From Squalus acanthias (lineage: Eukaryota): a DNA stretch of 64,000 nt. The translations under genes and the position numbers were made by a program. The notes under the pieces were generated by a model. It was given only the letters and a program-made list of their open reading frames with translations. It made no database searches and was not told the origin of the DNA. Each line of letters opens with the position of its first letter. Position 1 is the stretch's first letter. The stretch covers positions 137,270,001 to 137,334,000 of the forward strand of contig CM059431.1 in assembly GCA_030390025.1 (NCBI GenBank), written 5' to 3'. This document shows, one piece after another, positions 13,048 through 38,101 of the stretch.

Positions 13048-13379
13048 TATAAGAAAATATGCGAAATCTGTCCAGCTTTACGGTTCGGACTGGAGTGTAT
13101 CTGAGATCGGTAAATACTCCTCATTTCTGGAACAATCGGAGCCCCGATCAGAAAAACAGGTTACTCAATATTTGGCGTTAGTTACAGTCACTTAACAAAC
13201 AAGGGGCGATTTTCCGCTTCAGTGCGCCCGGGCCGCCAATGGGGAAATTGTACGGAACGCTAAATGGAACATCCCTCCTGGACACTGCGTTAGGCTCTTG
13301 GGATCTCAAATTCATTCGGTGAAAACTTCACTCATCCATTGTCTAATTTAAATTTGTTTTGTTACTGTTATGATACCTA

Positions 13380-14838
13380 GTGATTACTCCGCTCTAATAT
13401 TACTGGCAATGATTCATCGCTAACAATACTGGTGACGACTCCTCTCTAACATTGCTGGCGGTGACCCTACCCTAATATTACTGGTAATGACGGTACACTT
13501 ACATTAATGCTGGTGCTCCAATTCTATCGTTACTGGTGGTGATTATACTCTACGAGTACCGCTGGTAACCTAACCCAAAAAGTAATGGTGAGGGTACACT
13601 CTAACATTATTGCTGGTAATCTTACTCTAACATTCCTGGTGGTGATCCTACACTGTAATTACTGGTGGTGACCCTACTCCAACATAATTGTGGTGACCCG
13701 ACTCTAACATTACTGGTGGTGACTGTATTCTGCCATTACTGGTGGCGACTCTACTCTAACATTACTGGTGTTGACTTTACTGTAACATTAATGCGGGTGA
13801 CCGTACAGTAACGTTACTGGTGGTGTCCCTACTCTAACATTACTGGTGGTGACTATACCATGATATTACTGGTGGTGGCTTCACCATAACATAAATCGTG
13901 TTGACACTACTTTAATATTAGTGGTGGTGACTCTAATCTAACATAAATCGTGGTGAGTCCACTCTAACATTACTGGTGGTGACCCTACTCTAACATTATT
14001 GGTGGTGACACTACTTTAATATTACTGGTGGTGACCCTACTCTAACATTACTGCTGGTGACCGTACACTAACGTTGCTGGTAGTGTCCCTACTCCAACAT
14101 TAATGGTGGTGACTCTACTCTAATATTACTGCTAGTGACTCTACTCTAAAAGAAATGATGGTGACCCGACTGTAACATTACTGGTGGTGAAAGTACTCTA
14201 ACATTACTGGTGGTGACTCTACTCTAACATTACTGGTGGTGACTCTACACTTACATTACTGGTGGTGAAACTACTCTAACATTACTGGTGGTGACCCAAC
14301 TCTAACATTACTGGTGGTGACTCTACTCTAACATTACTGGTGGTGACTCTACACTTACATTACTGATGGTGACTCTAGTCTACCATTACTGGTGGTGACC
14401 CTACTCAACCACTACTGGTAGTGACCCTAATCGAACATTACTGGTGGTAGCCTTATTGTAAATTTGCTGGTAATCCCCCTACATAACATTAATGGTAATG
14501 GCCGTACACTGACATATGCTTTGCGGACTCTATGTTAGCATTACTGGTTGTTATTCTACTGGTGAGGACTATACTCTAGCGTTACTGGTAGTGACCCCAC
14601 TCTAACTTTGCTGCAGGTGACTATATTCTAATGTCATTGGTGGTGACCTTGATCTAACATAACTTGCGGTGACCGAACTGTAACCTTACCGATGGCGAGT
14701 CTACACTACCATTACTGGTGCTCAGTCAACTTTTACATTTTTGGTGATAACCCTATTCTAACATTATTATTGATGTATCTACACTAACATTAGAGGTAAT
14801 AACGACACTTTAACATTTCTGATGGTAACCCTACTCCA
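13380..14838. repeat. 26-bp minisatellite, about 55 copies
   Basis: Consensus tggtgactctactctaacattactgg; homogeneous in the centre and decayed at both edges. Confidence 0.95.
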
Positions 14839-16260
14839 CATAAGAACATAAGAATAAGGAGCAGGAATCAAAGAGTCATAGAGTCATTGAGTCATATTCA
14901 TAGACACATACGGCACAGAAGGTGGCCATTCGGCCCATCGAGTCCGTGCCGGTTCTCTGTAGAGCAATCCTGTCAGTCCCATTCCCCCGCTCTATCCCTG
15001 TAACCCTGCAAGTTTATTTCCCTCAAGTGCCTAGCCAGTCTCCCTTTGAAAATATTGTGTGTCTCCACTTCCACCACTTCCGTCAGCACTGAATTCCACG
15101 ACCTCACCACTCGCTGCGTAAAAAAGTTTTTCCTCACGTCCCCACTGTATCTCTTGCCCAAAACCTTAAATCTGTGTCCCCTTGTCCTTGTTCCACCAAT
15201 TAGTGGGATCAGCCTTTCCCTATCTAGCCTATCCAAACCCTTCATAATCTTGTACACCTCTATAAAATCGTCCCTCAACTTCCTTTACTCGAATGAAAAC
15301 AAGTGCACTTTCTCCAAACAGTCCTTACAGCTAAGATCCACCAACCACGGAACTATTCAGCAAATCTCCTCTGCACCCTCTCAAGGGCCTTCACATCCTT
15401 CCTAATGTTTGGTGACTAGACCTGGACACAATACTCCAGTTGTGGCTTAACCAGCACTTTATAAATGTTCAGCACAACTTCTCTACTTTTGTACTCAATA
15501 CCTCTATTTATAAAGCCCAACATTCCATATGCTTTGCGAACCATTCTCTCAATATGTCCTGCCACCTTCAGGGATCTATGCACAACAACTCCCAGGTACC
15601 TCTTTCTCTGCACGCTCTTTAAATCTGTGCTATTCCGTGTATATTGCTTCTCCTTGTTCCTTCTGCCAAAATGCTTCACCTCACAATTCCCTGTATTAAA
15701 TTGTATCTGCTACTTGTCTGCCCATTATGCTAGCCTTTCTATGTCCTGTTGCAGATTCATCCTCTAAGTTTGGTGTCATCGGCAAATTTAGAAATTCTAC
15801 TCTGTATTCCAATATCCAGGTCATTTATATATATATCAAAAAAGCAGTGGCCCCAGCACCGACCCTTGGAGAACACCATTGTCTACCATCCTCCAACCTG
15901 AAAAACAGCCATTTAACACAACTCGCTCTTTTCTGTCCTTAAGCCAATTCATTACTGAAGCTGCTGACCCATCTATTCCATGAACCTCAAATTTGTTAAC
16001 CAGCCTTCTATGTGGTACTTTGCCCAACGCCTTCGGAAAATTCATGTAGATAACATCCATTGCATTCCCTTCATCAATCCTCTCTGTTATTTCATCAAAA
16101 AATTCAATTAGATTAGTCAAACACGATCTGCCTTTTAGAAATCCATGTTGGTTCTCCTCAATTAGCTTAAACCTCTCCAAGTGCCCGTAAATTTTTTCCT
16201 TGATGATTGTTTCTAAAATTTTACCCACCACTGATGTTAAACTGACCGGCCTGTAGTTAC

Positions 16261-30194: not shown

Positions 30195-33100
30195 CCAGTG
30201 TTGTAATTGTACTGTAACGGCTTTGCTAGAGGCTCAGCTAGTTCTGGAGCTCAAGTCTTCAGCACGATAGCCGGGATGTTGTCGGAGCCCATAGCCTTTG
30301 CTGTTTACAGTGCGCTCAGCCGTTTCTTGACATCACGTGGAGTGAATCGAATTGGCTGAAGACTGGAATCTGTGCTGGTGGGGACCTCGGGAGTAGGTCG
30401 ATATGGATCATCCACTCGGCACTTCTGCCTGAAGATGGTTGCAAACACTTCAGTCTTGTATTTTGCACTCACGTGCTGGGCTCCACCATCATTGAGGATA
30501 GGGATATTCATTGAGCTTCCTCCTCCCGTTAGTTGTTTAATAGTCCACCACCATTCACGACTGGAATGTACTAGGACTGCAGAGCTTTGATCTGATCCAT
30601 TGATTGTGGGATCGCTTATCCATGTCTACAGCATGATGTTTCCGCTTTTTAGCATGCATGTAGTCCTGTGATCCAGCTTCCCCAGGTTGCACCTCATTTT
30701 CAGGCACGCCTGGTGCTGCTCCCGGCATGCTCTTCTACACTCCTTGTTGAACCAGGGTTGGTCTTCTGGCTTGGTGGTAATGGTAGAGTGAGGGATATGC
30801 CGGGCCATGTGTTTACTGATTGTGGTGGAATACAATTCTGCTGCTGATAATGGCCCACAGCGCATCATGGATGCCCAGTTTTGAGCTGCTAAATCTGTTC
30901 TGAATCTATCCCATTTAGTATGGTGGTAGTGCCACACGATGGAGGGTGTCCTCAGTGGAAAGACGGGACAGCGTCACCAAAGTTAATGTGCGGTGGTCAC
31001 TGCTACCAGTGCTGTAATGGACAGATGCATCTGCGACAGGTATATTGGCGAGGACGAGGTTGTCATAAATCGCAACGTCTTCAAGAAGTAACTCAGGAAG
31101 TACTACTGGGCGGCCAGCTGGGGCGCCCTCCGAGGAGTATAAATACTCGGGCGTGGGCCCACCTTGGGCAGAGACAATCTGGAAACAGGAAGCTCGTGAC
31201 TGCTAACTAGACCTCGATGTTTTGTTACAAGTCGATTAAAGCCTTGCTTTATTTTCAACCGAGTGCTAGTGAGTCTTTATTACGTCAATTTAATCGACTT
31301 GCATCGTCTCCACGCTTTGGATGATTCGGAACAACCAGCTGCAACTCGAACCACAGAAGGGAATTAGGGCAAGAAACTGATCCATCATGGAAAAACTTCT
31401 TAGACCCGCTCGTCTCGACCTGGACCCGAATGCACCTGCGGCAACGAAGGTATGGAAGCATTGGTTTCGTACCTTTAGCAACTTTCTTGAAGAATGTAGG
31501 GCGGATGCCCCTAATAAGTTACGAATGCTTTTTAACTACGTGTCCCCTCATGTGTATGATTATATTGAGGACTGTGTAGACTACGACACTGCAGTCCGAA
31601 TTTTACAGCAGCTATATGTCAAGTCCCCGAATGAAATCTTTGCTCGACACCTTCTGGCCACAACTCGGCAGCAGCCTGGGGAATCACTCGATTAATTCCT
31701 CCAAGAACTTCGCAGGCTCCGCAAGGATTGTAACCTTAAAGCGGTTACAGCTGAACAGTATCAAGAGGAACTAATCCGCGATTCCTTTATCAATGCAATT
31801 GCGTCCCCTTTTATACATCAGCGCCTGCTGGAAAATAAACCCCTCAATTTACAGACTGCTTATGACCAGGCGTGTTCCATGGACTTGGCCAAGAAGAATG
31901 CATACACTTATTTCCCACCACGTGCACGGGCGGCGGCTATCACCTTTAATGAGTCATTCGGTAGGTCTCGGGCGGATGCCCCCGCTGATGTTGACTCTAC
32001 TCAAACGGACGATGGCCCTACCCTCGAGGCCTTCGCTGATGACGACCCCGCCCTAGCAGCATCCTGGCAATCAGGAAGAAATTGTTTCTTTTGTGGCGGG
32101 GCGTGCCATTACAGAAAATTTTACCCGGCTCATAATGTGACCTGCAATCATTGCAGCAAGAAAGGACACCTTTCCAAGGTATGCCAGTCACGGGCCTCTG
32201 CTAACAAGAAAGGCCGTTCCTCTAAAGTATACCGGTCGAGAGCTCCTGTTAGCTTCACAGATGCTATCGATGGAGCTGCTCATCCCCCAAGAACCATTGT
32301 TAAGGAAAATTGCCCCTCCTCCCATCACAGCTGTTTTTCCTCAAAGTTTGTCCCATGCAGCCACGAAGGTTTCAGTAAATGGGCACATTCTAAGCGCGCT
32401 AATCGACTCCTGCAGCTCTGACAGCTTCATTAGTAAGCGGGATGTCAGAAGGTTAAAACTGTGCATTTATCCCTCCGACAGGGAGATTGTAATGGCTCTG
32501 ACGACTCTGACCACCAATTCTTCTGGCTTCTGTCTTGTCAACCTCATCCTCAATGGCCGCACTTATCCCTCCACCCGGCTCGGAGTACTCGAAAACTTAT
32601 GCAGCGATATGCTTCTGGGACAGGACTTCCAGAAGCAGCACAAGAGACTCACTTTTGAGTTTCGAGGGTCAAGGCCGGTGCTTACCATTTCTAAGGTGCC
32701 GTGTTGTGCGCTCTCGGCGGTCTTACTCGGTGAACCCTCCCTGTTTGCCAATCTTTCCCCCCGCTGTAAACCCATAGCCGCCAACTCGCGGTGCTTTAGC
32801 TAAGACGATTGAGCATTTATCGAGGCAGAAATCTCTCACCTTTTAATCGATGGTATTATCGAGCCGTGTTCATCTCCCTGGCGGGCTCAAGTCGTCATTG
32901 TGAAAAATCCCTTAAAACAACATAAAAAACGTCTGTGTATCGATTATTCGCAGACTATTAATCAATATACCGATCTGGATGCCTACCCGCTACCACGCAC
33001 AGATGACATGGTGAACAACGTTGCCAAATGCAAGTTATTTTCGACCTTCGATTTGAAAAGCATGTACCATTAGGTGCCGCTGAAAGACTCCGACAAGAAG

Positions 33101-36100
33101 TATACGGCCTTTGAGATCAATGGTCGGCTTTTTCAGTTTCACCGCCTTCCATTCGGGGTCACCAATGGGGTGGCCGTCTTCCAACGGGCAATGGATGGCC
33201 TAGTCCGGCAAGAGAACTTGACGGATACCTTTCCGTATTTAGACAATATCACTATTCCCGGCCATGATCAAAAGTTGCATGACGCCAATCTTCAGAGATT
33301 TTTTGACGTTTCCGTCATCGCCACTTAACGTTAAACGAATCCAAATCGGTGAAATCGGTGCCATCAGTGAACATTCTTGGCTACTGGGTGGGCAACGGTG
33401 TTATTAAACCGGACCCAGAGCGACTTCGTCCATTTCAGGAGCTCCCTCCCCCTACGAACCTCGGCTCTCTTCGTTGGGCAGTTGGCATGTTTGCTTATTA
33501 CGCAAAGTGGATACCACACTTCTCCGATAAAATACAGCCCCTGCTCCATGCGAAGTCTTTTCCATTGGAAGCTACGGCTATTTCTGCCTTCAACCTCCTC
33601 AAACGACAGCTGGAGAAAGCCACGCTTCGCTCCATTGATGAAAACCTTCCTTTTGTGCTCGAATGCGATGCATCGGAGGTGGCAATCTTGGCTACCTTGA
33701 ATCAAAGTGGCCGACCCGTGGCATTCATATCCAGAACCTTGCAGGGTAGCGAGCTCCATTACACCCCCGTCGAGAAGGAGGCTACAGCCATCATCGAGGC
33801 TGTACGCCAATAGGGTCATTTTCTTGCTCGGCGTCATTTTAGGCTTATAACTGACCAGCGCTCCGTGGCCTTCATGTTGGATAACAGGAAGCGCACGAAA
33901 ATCAAAAATAATAAAATTCAACTCTGGAGGATGGAGCTGGCCGCATTTGGATATACTATCCGTTACCAACCCAGCAAACAGAATGTGGCCCCAGATACAT
34001 TCACACGGGCATTTTGCTCTTCAATGTCAACGTCGACTCCGGCGGATTTGCATATGGACTTATGCCATCCTGGCGTGACCCGCATGTTGCACTTCGTGCG
34101 CTCCAAAGATCTACAATTTTCAACGGAGGACGTAAAGACAACATGCTCATCCTGTAGGATTTGTGCAAAATTGAAACCACAATTCTTCCGCCGATCAGAT
34201 GGCTTACTCATACATGCAATGCAGCCTATGCAGAGGCTCAGCATAGACTTTAAAGGGACATTGCCTTCGTCGACACGGAACAGCTACCTACTTACGATGG
34301 CAGACGAGTATTCATGCTTACCCTCCGCATTCCCCTGTCCTAATATGCTTACCTCTAAGGTAATTAAATGCCTCGATCAGGTCTTTTCCCTTTGCGGGAA
34401 GGCCAATTTTATCCACACGTATCGGGGTCCCTCCTTTATGTAGAGTGAACTTAAAAGTTATCTTTCCCAACAGGGAATCACCTCAAGTAAGACGACACCA
34501 TATCACCCAATCGGCAACGGACAGGTTGAACGATACAATGCCATCATCTGGAATGCTGTCCGTCTGGCACTGAGATCACGCAACCTACCGGACCAGCAGT
34601 GGGAAACGGGGCTCCCCGACGTGTTACATTCTATCAGGTCTCTTTTCTCCACATCTACTAATGTCCCACCTCAGAGCGATTCTTCAAATTCCGGCGTCGC
34701 CCTACACATGGGACGTCTCTATCGTCATGGTTGGTGGCTCCAGGCCCTGTGCTACTCCGGAGGTTCGTCCGGTCTGCCAAAAACGACCCTCTCGTTGACC
34801 AGGTGGAGTTAACAGAGGTAAACCCCACGTATGCGCACGTACGGTACCCTGATGGCCGGGAGGCCACCATCTCGCTCAGAGATCTGGCTCCCTGCCCAAC
34901 CAGTCATATGGGCCCAAATGATGAAGGATCCCACGAGGATGATATCAACACTCTGCATCCTTATGAAAATGACGCCCCACTTGGGATATCGAGGGATCTG
35001 CCGGAAGCGCTACCGGATCAACTCAGGGAGCCGGACGCTCCCCGTAGGATGGCCACCCGAAGCCAGGATGCCGGACAATCTCCAGCCACGACCCGGGATG
35101 AGGCCAGCCCTGCGCCTGTGGGGACCCGCACCCAGAGTCATGATATTCCCAGTCCTCCACAGGATGATCGAGACGACGCAGACTCTACCGACATACCGGT
35201 ATGGGCCAAGCGACCCAGTGACCCAGACACGGTCCGGGGAGACGTGCCTTCCAGTCACAAGCGGAGAGCTAAAGGACTACGGCTATTTCTGGTCCACCTA
35301 GTCCATTAAAGGAAGACTGGACTTCCAAACCTTTTAGGGAGGAAGAATGTCAAAATTGCAAGTTTCTGCAAGAAGTAACTAAGGAAGTACTACTTGGCGG
35401 CCAGCTGGAGCACCGTCCGAGGAGTTAAATACTCGGGCGTGGACCCACCTTGGGCAGAGACAATCTGGAAACAGGAAGCTAGTGACTGCTAACTAGACCT
35501 CCATGCTTTGTTACAAGTCGATTGAAGCCTTGCTGTATGTTCAACCAAGTGCGTGGTGATCTTTATTACATCAGAGGTCAAGTATCTTTTTCCCTCGTGT
35601 TGGTTCTCTCACCACCTGTTGCAGGCCCAGACTGGCAGTTACATCCTTCAGGACTCGGCCAGCTTGGTCAGTAGTGGTGTTGCCGAGCCACTCTTGGTGA
35701 TGGACAATTCCCCCATCCAGAGTATATTCTGTGCCCTTGCTACTCTCAGTGCTTCTTCCAAGTGGTGTTCAACATGGAGGAGTACTGATTCATCAGCTGA
35801 GGGATGGCGGTATTTGGTAATCAGCAGGAGGCTTGCTTGACCTGAGACTTCATGGGCTCCAGAGTCAAGGTTGAAGACTCCCAGGGCCACTCCTTCCCGA
35901 CTGTATACCACTGTGCCGCCACCACTGGTGGGTCTATCCTGCCGGTGGGACAGGACATACCCAGCGATGGTGATGTAGGAGTTCGTGACATTGACTGAAA
36001 GGTATGATTCTGTGAGTATGACTATATCTGGCTCTTGCTTTACTAGTCTGAGGGACAGCTCTCCCAATTTTGGCACAAGTCCCCAGATGTCGGGGAAGGA

Positions 36101-36530
36101 GGACTTTGCAGGGTTGACTGGGCTGGGTGTACCGTTGCCATGTCCGTAGCCAGTGCCGAGGTCGATTCCGGGTGGTCTGTCAGGTTTCATTCTTATTATG
36201 TTATGTAGCAGTTAGTTACAACTGAGTGACTTGCTAGGCCATTTCAGAGTGAAGAGACCAATCACATTGCTGTGTGTCTGGAGTCACATATAGGCCAGAC
36301 CAGGTGAGGACGGCAGATTTCCTTCCCTAAAGTACATTAGTGAAGCAGATGTTTTATTCCGAGAATCTGATAGCTTTATGGTTACCATTACTGATAATAA
36401 CTTTTTTTTCCAGATTTATTTAATTAACTGAACTTAAATTCCCCACATTTCGTTTTGGGATTTGAACTCACGTTTCGGGATCATTATTCCAGGCCTTTGG
36501 ATTACTAGCACAGTGACACTACTACTAAGA
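30195..36530 (-). mobile_element. LINE of a second CR1/Jockey-group family: tRNA-like 5' head, endonuclease and tether, 3' part missing; interrupted by the Gypsy element
   Basis: ORF 35648..36190 (PDIVILTESYL, HRQDRPTSGGGTVVY), 30626..30937 (WHYHHTKWDRFRTDL, PWFNKEC) and 30305..30511. Another fragment lies at about 62610-62945. Confidence 0.8.
31061..35573 (+). mobile_element. Full-length decayed Ty3/Gypsy LTR retrotransposon (gag-PR-RT-RNaseH-IN)
   Basis: TG..CA LTRs at 31061-31287 and 35348-35573; TSD GAGGT (31056-31060, 35574-35578); polypurine tract just before 35348. Gag with CNHCSKKGHLSKVC knuckle, PR ALIDS, RT LPFG..YLDN, RNaseH ECDAS, IN HHCC and SIDFKG. Several stops and frameshifts. 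Confidence 0.97.
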
Positions 36531-37510: not shown

Positions 37511-37654
37511 TACACCCACAGTTTATATTTTCACATGGCCTTGTTTGTAGGTCTAACTACTGTCTCCACGCCGAAAGTTTAATTGTTTTCATAAGCTGTT
37601 CGACCGGTTGTGTATTTTGAGCAATTTCCTGGTTGTATTTCGATGTGCTGTGGT

Positions 37655-37726
37655 GACCTCGTGGCGCAACGGTAGCGTGTCTGAATCCAGATCAGAATGC
37701 TGCGTGTTCAAATCACGACAGGGTCA
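37655..37726 (+). tRNA. tRNA-Trp(CCA), degenerate (probable pseudogene)
   Basis: GACCTCGTGGCGCAACGGTAGCG..CCAGATCAGAA..GTTCAAATCAC..GGGTCA matches vertebrate tRNA-Trp. Mismatches in the acceptor and T stems and at position 32; followed by a T-run. Confidence 0.85.
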
Positions 37727-38101
37727 GAATTATTTTTCGCGTTGATTGGAGTCTGGAAAATTCCATAACAATATTTTCTTTGCTTTTTCACAATAAACAG
37801 AACCATGCTGTAAAGTCTGTCTCACTAGTTCCCCAGTGTCAGGGAGAGAAGCGCCAGATGCCCTCATTTATTTGCTGTAACAAACTCACACCTCCGTTTT
37901 CACATCTGAGGCCGCTGTTAAAGAGCGTGTCCTTTGTGGGAGGGAGACTGTTCCTGAAGTGAAGCCGGTGGGGGCAGTCAGCCTGCGTTTGTGAGAGAAA
38001 TGCGCTGTACAGGCGCGATTATTGGAGAAGCAAATGCAATTTGTTGAGTGTTTAATGCAGCAGGTGAGCCAATGAAAGTCGTATGGTCCACGGCAAGCAG
38101 A

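What the first reader, a model, noticed from the sequence alone, without database searches (positions are those of the whole stretch)
31061..31305. Gypsy element with no tRNA PBS: the PBS position is a perfect 13-nt complement of its own LTR across the poly(A) signal
Seen: after the 5' LTR end (..TCA 31287) there is no TGG-type PBS. Instead TTTAATCGACTTG (31289-31301) is the exact reverse complement of CAAGTCGATTAAA (31228-31240) inside the LTR, which includes the ATTAAA poly(A)-signal variant. The 3' LTR has CAAGTCGATTGAA, which can still pair through G-U. Established: fission-yeast Tf1 self-primes by pairing its PBS with the first bases of its own mRNA. Inference: the partner here lies roughly 60 nt downstream of the start expected from TATAAATA (31138), so this may be a different self-priming geometry. 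The fold-back could also mask the 5' LTR poly(A) signal while leaving the 3' LTR signal free.
Basis: partly seen in the sequence, partly recalled or inferred. Interest (0 to 1): 0.8.

Follow-up and report, generated by a model that had tools for sequence, protein, structure and literature searches.

The report
Self-priming Gypsy lineage of marine animals
This jumping gene and dozens of distant relatives in marine animals seem to start copying their RNA into DNA with a piece of their own terminal repeat instead of a host tRNA, and mutation footprints suggest that piece comes from the far end of the RNA (or a second RNA) rather than from the very front, as in the one proven case in yeast.

Summary
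In detail: 31289-31301 is the exact complement of LTR 31228-31240 in a decayed 4.5-kb Ty3/Gypsy copy (31061-35573, 5-bp target duplication). The pairing holds across the lineage. In 30 of 36 sequence clusters, the PBS position pairs 9-19 nt with the element's own LTR (shuffles about 4). Nine variable positions match fully in 22 of 31 own-family pairs against 7 of 930 cross-family pairs. No PBS begins with TGG. Self-priming is very likely (about 0.93).

Two footprints among hundreds of genomic copies bear on geometry. The base after the PBS varies in 123 of 653 copies (neighbours 1 and 8), marking a 13-nt primer end. C31169, just before the TATA-predicted start A31170, reads G in about 97 LTRs against 1903 C (control site 5), as cap copying would leave. 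So reverse transcriptase probably runs through the 5' partner to the cap, and the primer comes from the 3' repeat or a second RNA (about 0.55). No RNA ends were mapped. Poly(A) masking is not universal (19 of 30). The lineage lacks a chromodomain and mostly has a YxDN polymerase motif. This scan earlier noted self-priming in diatom Copia and moss elements, not in this lineage.

The parts
31056..31060 (+). 5' target-site duplication GAGGT
   Evidence: empty-site joins
31061..31287 (+). 5' LTR (TG...CA), 227 nt
   Evidence: copies start at the same base
31138..31145 (+). TATA box, kept at the same spacing in a diverged sister family (L031, L032)
31169..31170 (+). Predicted transcription start A31170 (U3/R border); C31169 is the site of the C-to-G footprint
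   Evidence: inferred from TATA spacing
31170..31227 (+). Inferred R segment upstream of the partner; proposed acceptor for the first strand transfer
   Evidence: inference from the start site and partner position
31228..31240 (+). 13-nt self-primer sequence (partner), ending in ATTAAA (31235-31240)
31241..31244 (+). Conserved (G/A)CC(T) directly after the partner; opens a small hairpin in 21 of 30 families, decayed in this copy
31289..31301 (+). PBS, one base (A31288) after the LTR end; complement of the partner
31301..31302 (+). Junction holding the hypervariable first base after the PBS (absent in this copy and in L015)
31387..35309 (+). gag-PR-RT-RNase H-IN coding region, broken by stops and frameshifts in this copy; no env, no chromodomain hit
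33236..33247 (+). RT active-site motif reading YLDN instead of YxDD
35336..35347 (+). Polypurine tract
35348..35573 (+). 3' LTR
35514..35526 (+). 3' copy of the partner (one decay change in this copy); candidate source of the primer
   Evidence: role inferred
35574..35578 (+). 3' target-site duplication GAGGT

Best explanation
A non-chromovirus Ty3/Gypsy lineage of marine animals primes minus-strand synthesis with its own RNA, but not the Tf1 way. Transcription starts at A31170, so the 13-nt partner lies inside R and is present at both RNA ends. A second copy of the partner pairs with the PBS: most simply the one in the 3' R of the genome RNA, which circularises the RNA, or else one on the co-packaged RNA. 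A cut or trimming just after TAAA gives the 3'-OH. RT copies U5, the intact 5' partner and R up to the cap, sometimes copying the cap as C. The DNA then transfers to the 58 nt of 3' R upstream of the consumed partner. RNase H removes that RNA up to the border of the RNA:RNA duplex and leaves a 13-nt primer. Plus-strand synthesis copies the primer, runs off its end and adds an untemplated base. Shown: complementarity, covariation, both footprints. Inferred: start site, cut, primer source, order of steps.
For: Covariation: 22 of 31 families pair 9/9 with their own LTR against 7 of 930 cross pairs, with 0 of 100000 permutations reaching the total; 27 distinct PBS 12-mers, none starting TGG. Primer end: the base after the PBS is the most variable of 442 columns in 30 copies (A16 C7 G3 T2 gap2) and needs 13 changes on a tree built without it. 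Genome-wide in the young subfamily it is A in 530 and not A in 123, while the flanking bases change in 1 and 8. T, the base a longer primer would template, is 0 of the 100 non-A listed. Cap footprint: 31169 is C in 1903 LTR matches and not C in 101, with 97 G and 3 T of 100 listed. The next base changes in 7, and the same GGG-C context 11 nt upstream gives 5 G. C-to-G is among the rarest changes in these copies, and only 1 of 21 GGG-C sites shows it. The G stands in both LTRs of L047, L052 and L054 and on several backgrounds; one clade of 11 G copies among 36 is rejected (p-AU 0.013). The last partner base, where a Tf1-type strong-stop end would lie, changes in only 4 matches. An extra G from the mRNA cap is a described footprint in full-length L1 insertions (PMC11702581, passage).
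Against: No RNA end was mapped; the four runs laid were contigs. All 38 G-bearing LTR places fetched belong to the young subfamily, and the window's own older subfamily has C in 26 of 26 readable LTRs. The G could therefore be a lineage marker spread by recombination. The trees are star-like, the G copies were picked for their G, at least 6 of 20 share one sub-lineage, and the AU result may rest largely on L153. A TATA at a fixed distance is not seen outside this genome's families (hits at -90, -89, -62, -31, -98 in a few; none in most), so the geometry is shown for this genome only. C after the PBS (7 of 30; 15 of 100) is what a capped 13-nt primer would leave. A local 48-nt loop should outcompete long-range pairing. 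The absence of a hot spot at 31240 is weak evidence, because mismatches there may extend poorly, and unchanged counts for the patterns were not taken separately.
Confidence: 0.55

Rival explanations
1. Cis self-priming with a long leader. The start is A31170, the 5' partner folds onto the PBS, RNase H cuts after TAAA as in Tf1, strong-stop DNA ends at 31241 and transfers over the 15-25 nt between hexamer and poly(A) site. The leader is trimmed later.
For: The local duplex forms readily (pair probability above 0.8 in 27 of 30 families). The conserved RCC at the junction looks like a cut-site signal. Precedent in Tf1/Tf2 (PMC5341516, passages).
Against: The cap is never met on the minus strand in this route, so G31169 in both LTRs needs a side route or inheritance. 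No hot spot at 31240. An untrimmed leader would template T after the PBS, seen in 0 of 100.
Confidence: 0.2
2. Plain Tf1 geometry. The priming RNA starts at the partner (31228), the capped 13-mer is the primer, and the TATA at 31138 drives a second, longer RNA that is only sometimes copied.
For: The primer's 5' end maps to 31228. C after the PBS fits cap copying. A T-rich stretch plus AGT at the partner's 5' part is conserved across families and resembles an initiator (recalled). One family has TATA at -31 (L068). Tf2 uses alternative starts.
Against: TATA and CA spacing are kept at -90/-59 in diverged families of this genome. The G footprint lies at 31169. A start on C is less usual (general knowledge).
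Confidence: 0.15
3. The duplex is not the primer. It masks the 5' poly(A) signal or does some other structural job, and a host tRNA fragment or small RNA primes.
For: The hexamer lies inside the duplex in 19 of 30 families. The family-wide partner motif loosely resembles a tRNA D-loop (recalled, untested). Host small RNAs were not searched.
Against: The duplex begins 1 nt after the LTR end in 30 of 30 families, where a primer must sit. 27 different PBS 12-mers track their own LTRs, including one with TGAAGA in place of the hexamer (L105). The run-off footprint lies exactly at the duplex end. 10 of 30 families have no canonical hexamer there.
Confidence: 0.07

Closest known systems
Tf1/Tf2 (Schizosaccharomyces pombe), Tj1, Tosmo and the Tf1/sushi group of chromoviruses
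   Same: PBS directly after the 5' LTR that pairs with the element's own LTR; no tRNA; the primer is copied into the plus strand and RT adds untemplated bases (PMC11042837, passages; bioRxiv 10.1101/2022.12.06.519325, passages).
   Different: There the primer is the RNA's first bases and is cut off in cis, within a three-duplex 'pretzel', and the integrase has a chromodomain. Here the partner lies about 59 nt inside R, ends at a TAAA|RCC junction, side duplexes are not general (3 of 30), no chromodomain is found, and the RT motif is mostly YxDN.
Plant Tcn1 (Gypsy) and TAR (Copia) lineages with predicted self-priming
   Same: Predicted from a 10-nt or longer complement between the PBS position and the LTR (PMC6317226, passages).
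   Different: Other lineages and hosts; described as a primer released from the 5' LTR; no footprint analysis in the passages seen.
Ty3 bipartite PBS
   Same: Priming that brings the 5' and 3' ends of the RNA together (PMC5371799, passages).
   Different: Ty3 uses host initiator tRNA as bridge and primer.
Dictyostelium Skipper
   Same: Gypsy elements without a TGG PBS; an unconventional self-priming was suggested (PMC5006619, passages).
   Different: Polypyrimidine tract with no complement in the left LTR; chromodomain present.
Mollusc MolGy clades and the Mag lineage
   Same: Large non-chromovirus Gypsy clades of marine invertebrates; the paired Cys/His gag motif resembles Mag/SURL gag (recalled).
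   Different: Membership not tested: no reference sequences were at hand, and that paper's main text has no PBS or primer mention (PMC6238403); 5 supplements gave no hit and 1 could not be read.

Membership tests
Ty3/Gypsy LTR retrotransposon | Two direct LTRs (TG...CA), target duplication, PPT | tested here: met
Ty3/Gypsy LTR retrotransposon | Domain order gag-PR-RT-RNase H-IN; closest solved relative Ty3 | tested here: met
   (best hit Ty3 Gag-Pol, E 8e-58, for homologue P0004)
tRNA-primed LTR elements | PBS starting TGG, complementary to a tRNA 3' end | tested here: not met
   0 of 31 families start with TGG
Half-tRNA or tRNA-fragment primed elements | PBS complementary to an internal tRNA stretch | not testable with these tools
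   No host tRNA set could be searched; indirect evidence against
Tf1/sushi self-priming group | PBS complementary to own LTR, next to the LTR end | tested here: met
Tf1/sushi self-priming group | Self-primer is the 5' end of the RNA | tested here: inconclusive
   No RNA ends; TATA spacing and the G31169 footprint argue for a start 58 nt upstream, C after the PBS for a capped primer
Tf1/sushi self-priming group | Three-duplex pretzel structure | tested here: inconclusive
   Loop-to-downstream duplex beat 95% of shuffles in 3 of 30 families; only this one side duplex was tested; a local hairpin after the partner in 21 of 30
Tf1/sushi self-priming group | Integrase chromodomain (chromovirus) | tested here: not met
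   No chromodomain hit to E 0.1 in P0004 and P0048; none among the precomputed domains of 120 listed homologues
Tf1/sushi self-priming group | Groups with Tf1/sushi in an RT tree | not tested
   No named reference sequences could be loaded
Tf1/sushi self-priming group | Primer released by the RNase H domain | not testable with these tools
   Needs biochemistry
Mag / MolGy clades | Position in an RT-RNase H tree | not tested
   searches gave no usable references

The most novel reading that the evidence does not exclude
A widespread animal Gypsy lineage primes reverse transcription with the 3' end of its own genome RNA. The copy of R that ends at the poly(A)-type hexamer pairs with the PBS, circularising the RNA. 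Removing the tail frees the 3'-OH, so primer, strand-transfer acceptor and template are one molecule. A naturally YxDN polymerase carries this out. This would be a fourth priming mode beside whole tRNA, half tRNA and the 5' self-primer.
Probability: 0.38. Interest if true: 0.88.

Novelty: new variant of a known kind. Interest (0 to 1): 0.74.

Why it matters
Self-priming is proven only in fission-yeast Tf1-type chromoviruses and predicted for a few plant groups. This lineage has homologues annotated in cnidarians, crustaceans, a mollusc, a tunicate, a nematode, sharks and rays and lacks the chromodomain. That points to a separate or much older origin of tRNA-free priming. If the primer comes from the 3' repeat, it is a new solution that couples 3'-end processing, priming and first strand transfer, and it would leave these elements without the PBS target that tRNA fragments use against other LTR elements (inference). 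The two footprints also give a way to map primer ends and start sites of any high-copy LTR family from genome sequence alone.

Tried and rejected
RNA evidence: no RNA holder was listed. Four runs laid were contigs and cannot show ends; they only confirmed the empty insertion site. Ribozyme or known RNA family in the LTR: Rfam gave only two chance-level hits, E above 1. The one tRNA gene in the window (37654-37727) was not compared with the PBS. Fold energy of the region as evidence: not above shuffles; loop energies were unremarkable in most families. Fixed TATA distance across families: not found. Slippage beside a G run as the cause of C-to-G: rejected by the control site and by 20 other GGG-C sites. 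CpG decay as the cause of variation after the PBS: the site is not a CpG in the common forms. Start-site footprints in invertebrate families: too few copies, nothing clear. The name 'Selgy', recalled as a self-priming Gypsy group, proved to be a Selaginella clade. Six clusters failed the strict test (L063, L106, L113, L121, L128, L133); L113, L121 and L128 show the duplex with one or two mismatches, while L063, L106 and L133 were not resolved. Seven of 83 loci had no anchor or too little upstream sequence, and 5 of 36 clusters were dropped (4 without the motif anchor, 1 too short). The bacterial promoter scan is not applicable. Ten paper searches found no description of self-priming or of YxDN in this lineage; one search was swamped by unrelated words. 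Repbase and the primary Tf1, sushi and Ty1 papers were not available, so prior description there is not excluded.

Full report
Observation. The 13 bases at 31289-31301 are the exact reverse complement of 31228-31240, and pairing ends sharply on both sides. They follow the 5' LTR (31061-31287) after one base. The 3' LTR is 35348-35573, 89.5% identical, with a polypurine tract before it and a GAGGT duplication on both flanks. Public contigs join the flanks, confirming the borders. The coding region holds gag, protease, RT, RNase H and integrase in Ty3/Gypsy order, broken by stops and frameshifts, so this copy is dead. The host is a 3.7-Gb genome with 1369 first-look candidates for the LTR region.

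Conservation in the genome. Among 30 copies of the window's subfamily, the PBS is unchanged in 29 and the LTR partner is exact in 17; most other differences are at its CpG. A younger subfamily has the compensating change in both strands, and a more distant family has a 12-nt version.

Conservation across the lineage. A gag profile fetched 80 metagenome loci. With three loci from this genome, 76 of 83 had an anchor and enough upstream sequence, forming 36 clusters. Thirty clusters have a perfect complement of 9-19 nt beginning at the anchor (26 have 12 or more), against shuffle means of 3-5; six fail (best member per cluster). With anchors set by motif and the first member per cluster, 22 of 31 families pair at all nine variable positions with their own LTR, against 7 of 930 cross-family pairs; 0 of 100000 permutations reach the total; no PBS starts with TGG. 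The layout is constant: partner ending in AAA, then (G/A)CC(T), a 24-76 nt loop, CA, A, then the PBS. Named homologues come from cnidarians, crustaceans, a mollusc, a tunicate, a nematode, sharks and rays. A single host RNA cannot explain 27 different PBS 12-mers that each follow their own LTR. Host tRNAs were not searched directly.

Poly(A) signal. A(A/T)TAAA ends at the partner's last base in 19 of 30 families and one base off in 1. Ten have other hexamers, three of them with a canonical hexamer further on, outside the duplex. Masking of the 5' signal may occur in this family but is not the rule.

Footprint 1: where the primer ends. The first base after the PBS is the most variable of 442 columns in 30 copies and changes 13 times on a weakly resolved tree built without it (four rows had long branches). 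In the young subfamily genome-wide it is A in 530 copies and not A in 123 (85 G, 15 C, 0 T of 100 listed), while the last PBS base changes in 1 and the next base in 8. Some of the G may be inherited. Tf1 RT is reported to copy the primer and add untemplated bases (PMC11042837, passages). The simplest reading is that plus-strand synthesis runs off a 13-nt primer at 31228.

Footprint 2: where the template ends. TATAAATA at 31138 predicts a start at A31170, and the same spacing to a CA holds in the distant family. At 31169, 1903 LTR matches read C and 101 do not (97 G, 3 T of 100 listed), many as LTR pairs 4.3 kb apart. The next base changes in 7. The same GGG-C context upstream gives 5 G and 3 T. 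In 28 young copies only this one of 21 GGG-C sites shows C-to-G. The G is in both LTRs of three copies. On trees it needs 11 changes (20 G of 45 rows) or 7 changes (11 G of 36 longer rows), and a single G clade is rejected (p-AU 0.013). A G just before the start is what copying the cap leaves, as described for L1 (PMC11702581, passage). Against this: all 38 G places fetched are of the young subfamily, the window's subfamily has C in 26 of 26 readable LTRs, at least 6 G copies form one sub-lineage, and recombination could scatter a single mutation. The last partner base, the end point in a Tf1-type cut, changes in only 4 matches, 3 on one contig.

Mechanism. If minus-strand synthesis reaches the cap at 31170, the template's own 5' partner was not cut out, so the primer came from another copy of R. 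The 3' R of the same RNA is the most economical source. It explains the 58 nt of R upstream of the partner as transfer acceptor, the primer ending at the hexamer near the RNA's 3' end, and a primer trimmed by RNase H to exactly the paired length, which varies from 12 to 19 nt between families. A co-packaged RNA would do as well. I put this class at 0.55 (3' copy about 0.38), a cis cut with a long leader at 0.2, plain Tf1 geometry at 0.15 and a non-priming role at 0.07. Self-priming in some form is about 0.93. The start site, the cut and the primer source are inferred; no RNA end was seen, and the start-site evidence holds for this genome's families only.

Comparison. It works like Tf1-type self-priming (PMC4600332, PMC5341516, bioRxiv 10.1101/2022.12.06.519325; passages) but should not be filed in the Tf1/sushi group. 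No chromodomain was found, the one side duplex tested was significant in 3 of 30 families, and the tree position was not tested. Predicted self-priming in plants concerns Tcn1 and TAR (PMC6317226, passages). The RT motif is YxDN in 89 of 114 homologues, a change lethal for Ty3 transposition (PMC5371799 section 3.1).

Literature. Ten searches found no account of this lineage's priming. Passages were also read in PMC3601003, PMC3035444, PMC5006619, PMC6238403, PMC10886601 and PMC11371274; PMC2774666 gave no hits. Repbase, subscription papers and one unreadable supplement may hold earlier notes. Earlier findings of this scan report self-priming in diatom Copia and moss elements and none for this protein family.

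Verdict. A real, lineage-wide self-complementary PBS; a new variant of a known kind, with a fair chance of a priming geometry not described before. Interest 0.74.

Noticed in passing
window 33236-33247; loci L031-L140; proteins P0060-P0173: The RT motif is YxDN in most of the lineage: 89 of 114 homologues, YxDD in 14, no motif found in 11. It is also so in this genome's young copies with long open frames. The same change in Ty3 keeps polymerase activity but is lethal for transposition (PMC5371799 section 3.1).
   Followed up: partly
L159 (G000:C19), L160 (G000:C27); also a match pair at G000:C1:101167156/101167221: Insertions made of two inverted part-LTRs with their own 5-bp target duplications and the same junction (31221 to 31187, 5-nt microhomology) in two loci. 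They look like fold-back products of reverse transcription or a small non-autonomous family. The junction lies 6 nt upstream of the partner, which fits an RNA or DNA end there.
   Followed up: partly
G000:C19:4681441-4688423; G000:C4:937938 and 942233: Three LTR matches about 3.5 kb apart and two PBS matches 4.3 kb apart suggest tandem elements sharing an LTR.
   Followed up: no
G000 genome-wide; L033-L060: A young sister subfamily (about 0.3% end branches, at least 653 PBS-bearing copies, many solo LTRs) differs from the window's subfamily by a compensating C-G to T-A change in the duplex.
   Followed up: yes
L072-L078, L088-L090, L136: In one invertebrate family the 14th PBS base is either pairing (G) or not (T) while bases 15-19 still pair, hinting at primers of mixed length.
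   Followed up: no
L105, L126: A family whose partner ends in TGAAGA with a matching PBS, showing that the hexamer itself can change.
   Followed up: yes
window 30700-31055 and 35579-36260: The element sits inside an abundant older repeat, whose uninterrupted form appears in public contigs; it looks like a LINE fragment (not tested).
   Followed up: no
window 13377-14887; 37654-37727: A 26-nt tandem array of about 1.5 kb and a tRNA-Trp call.
   Followed up: no
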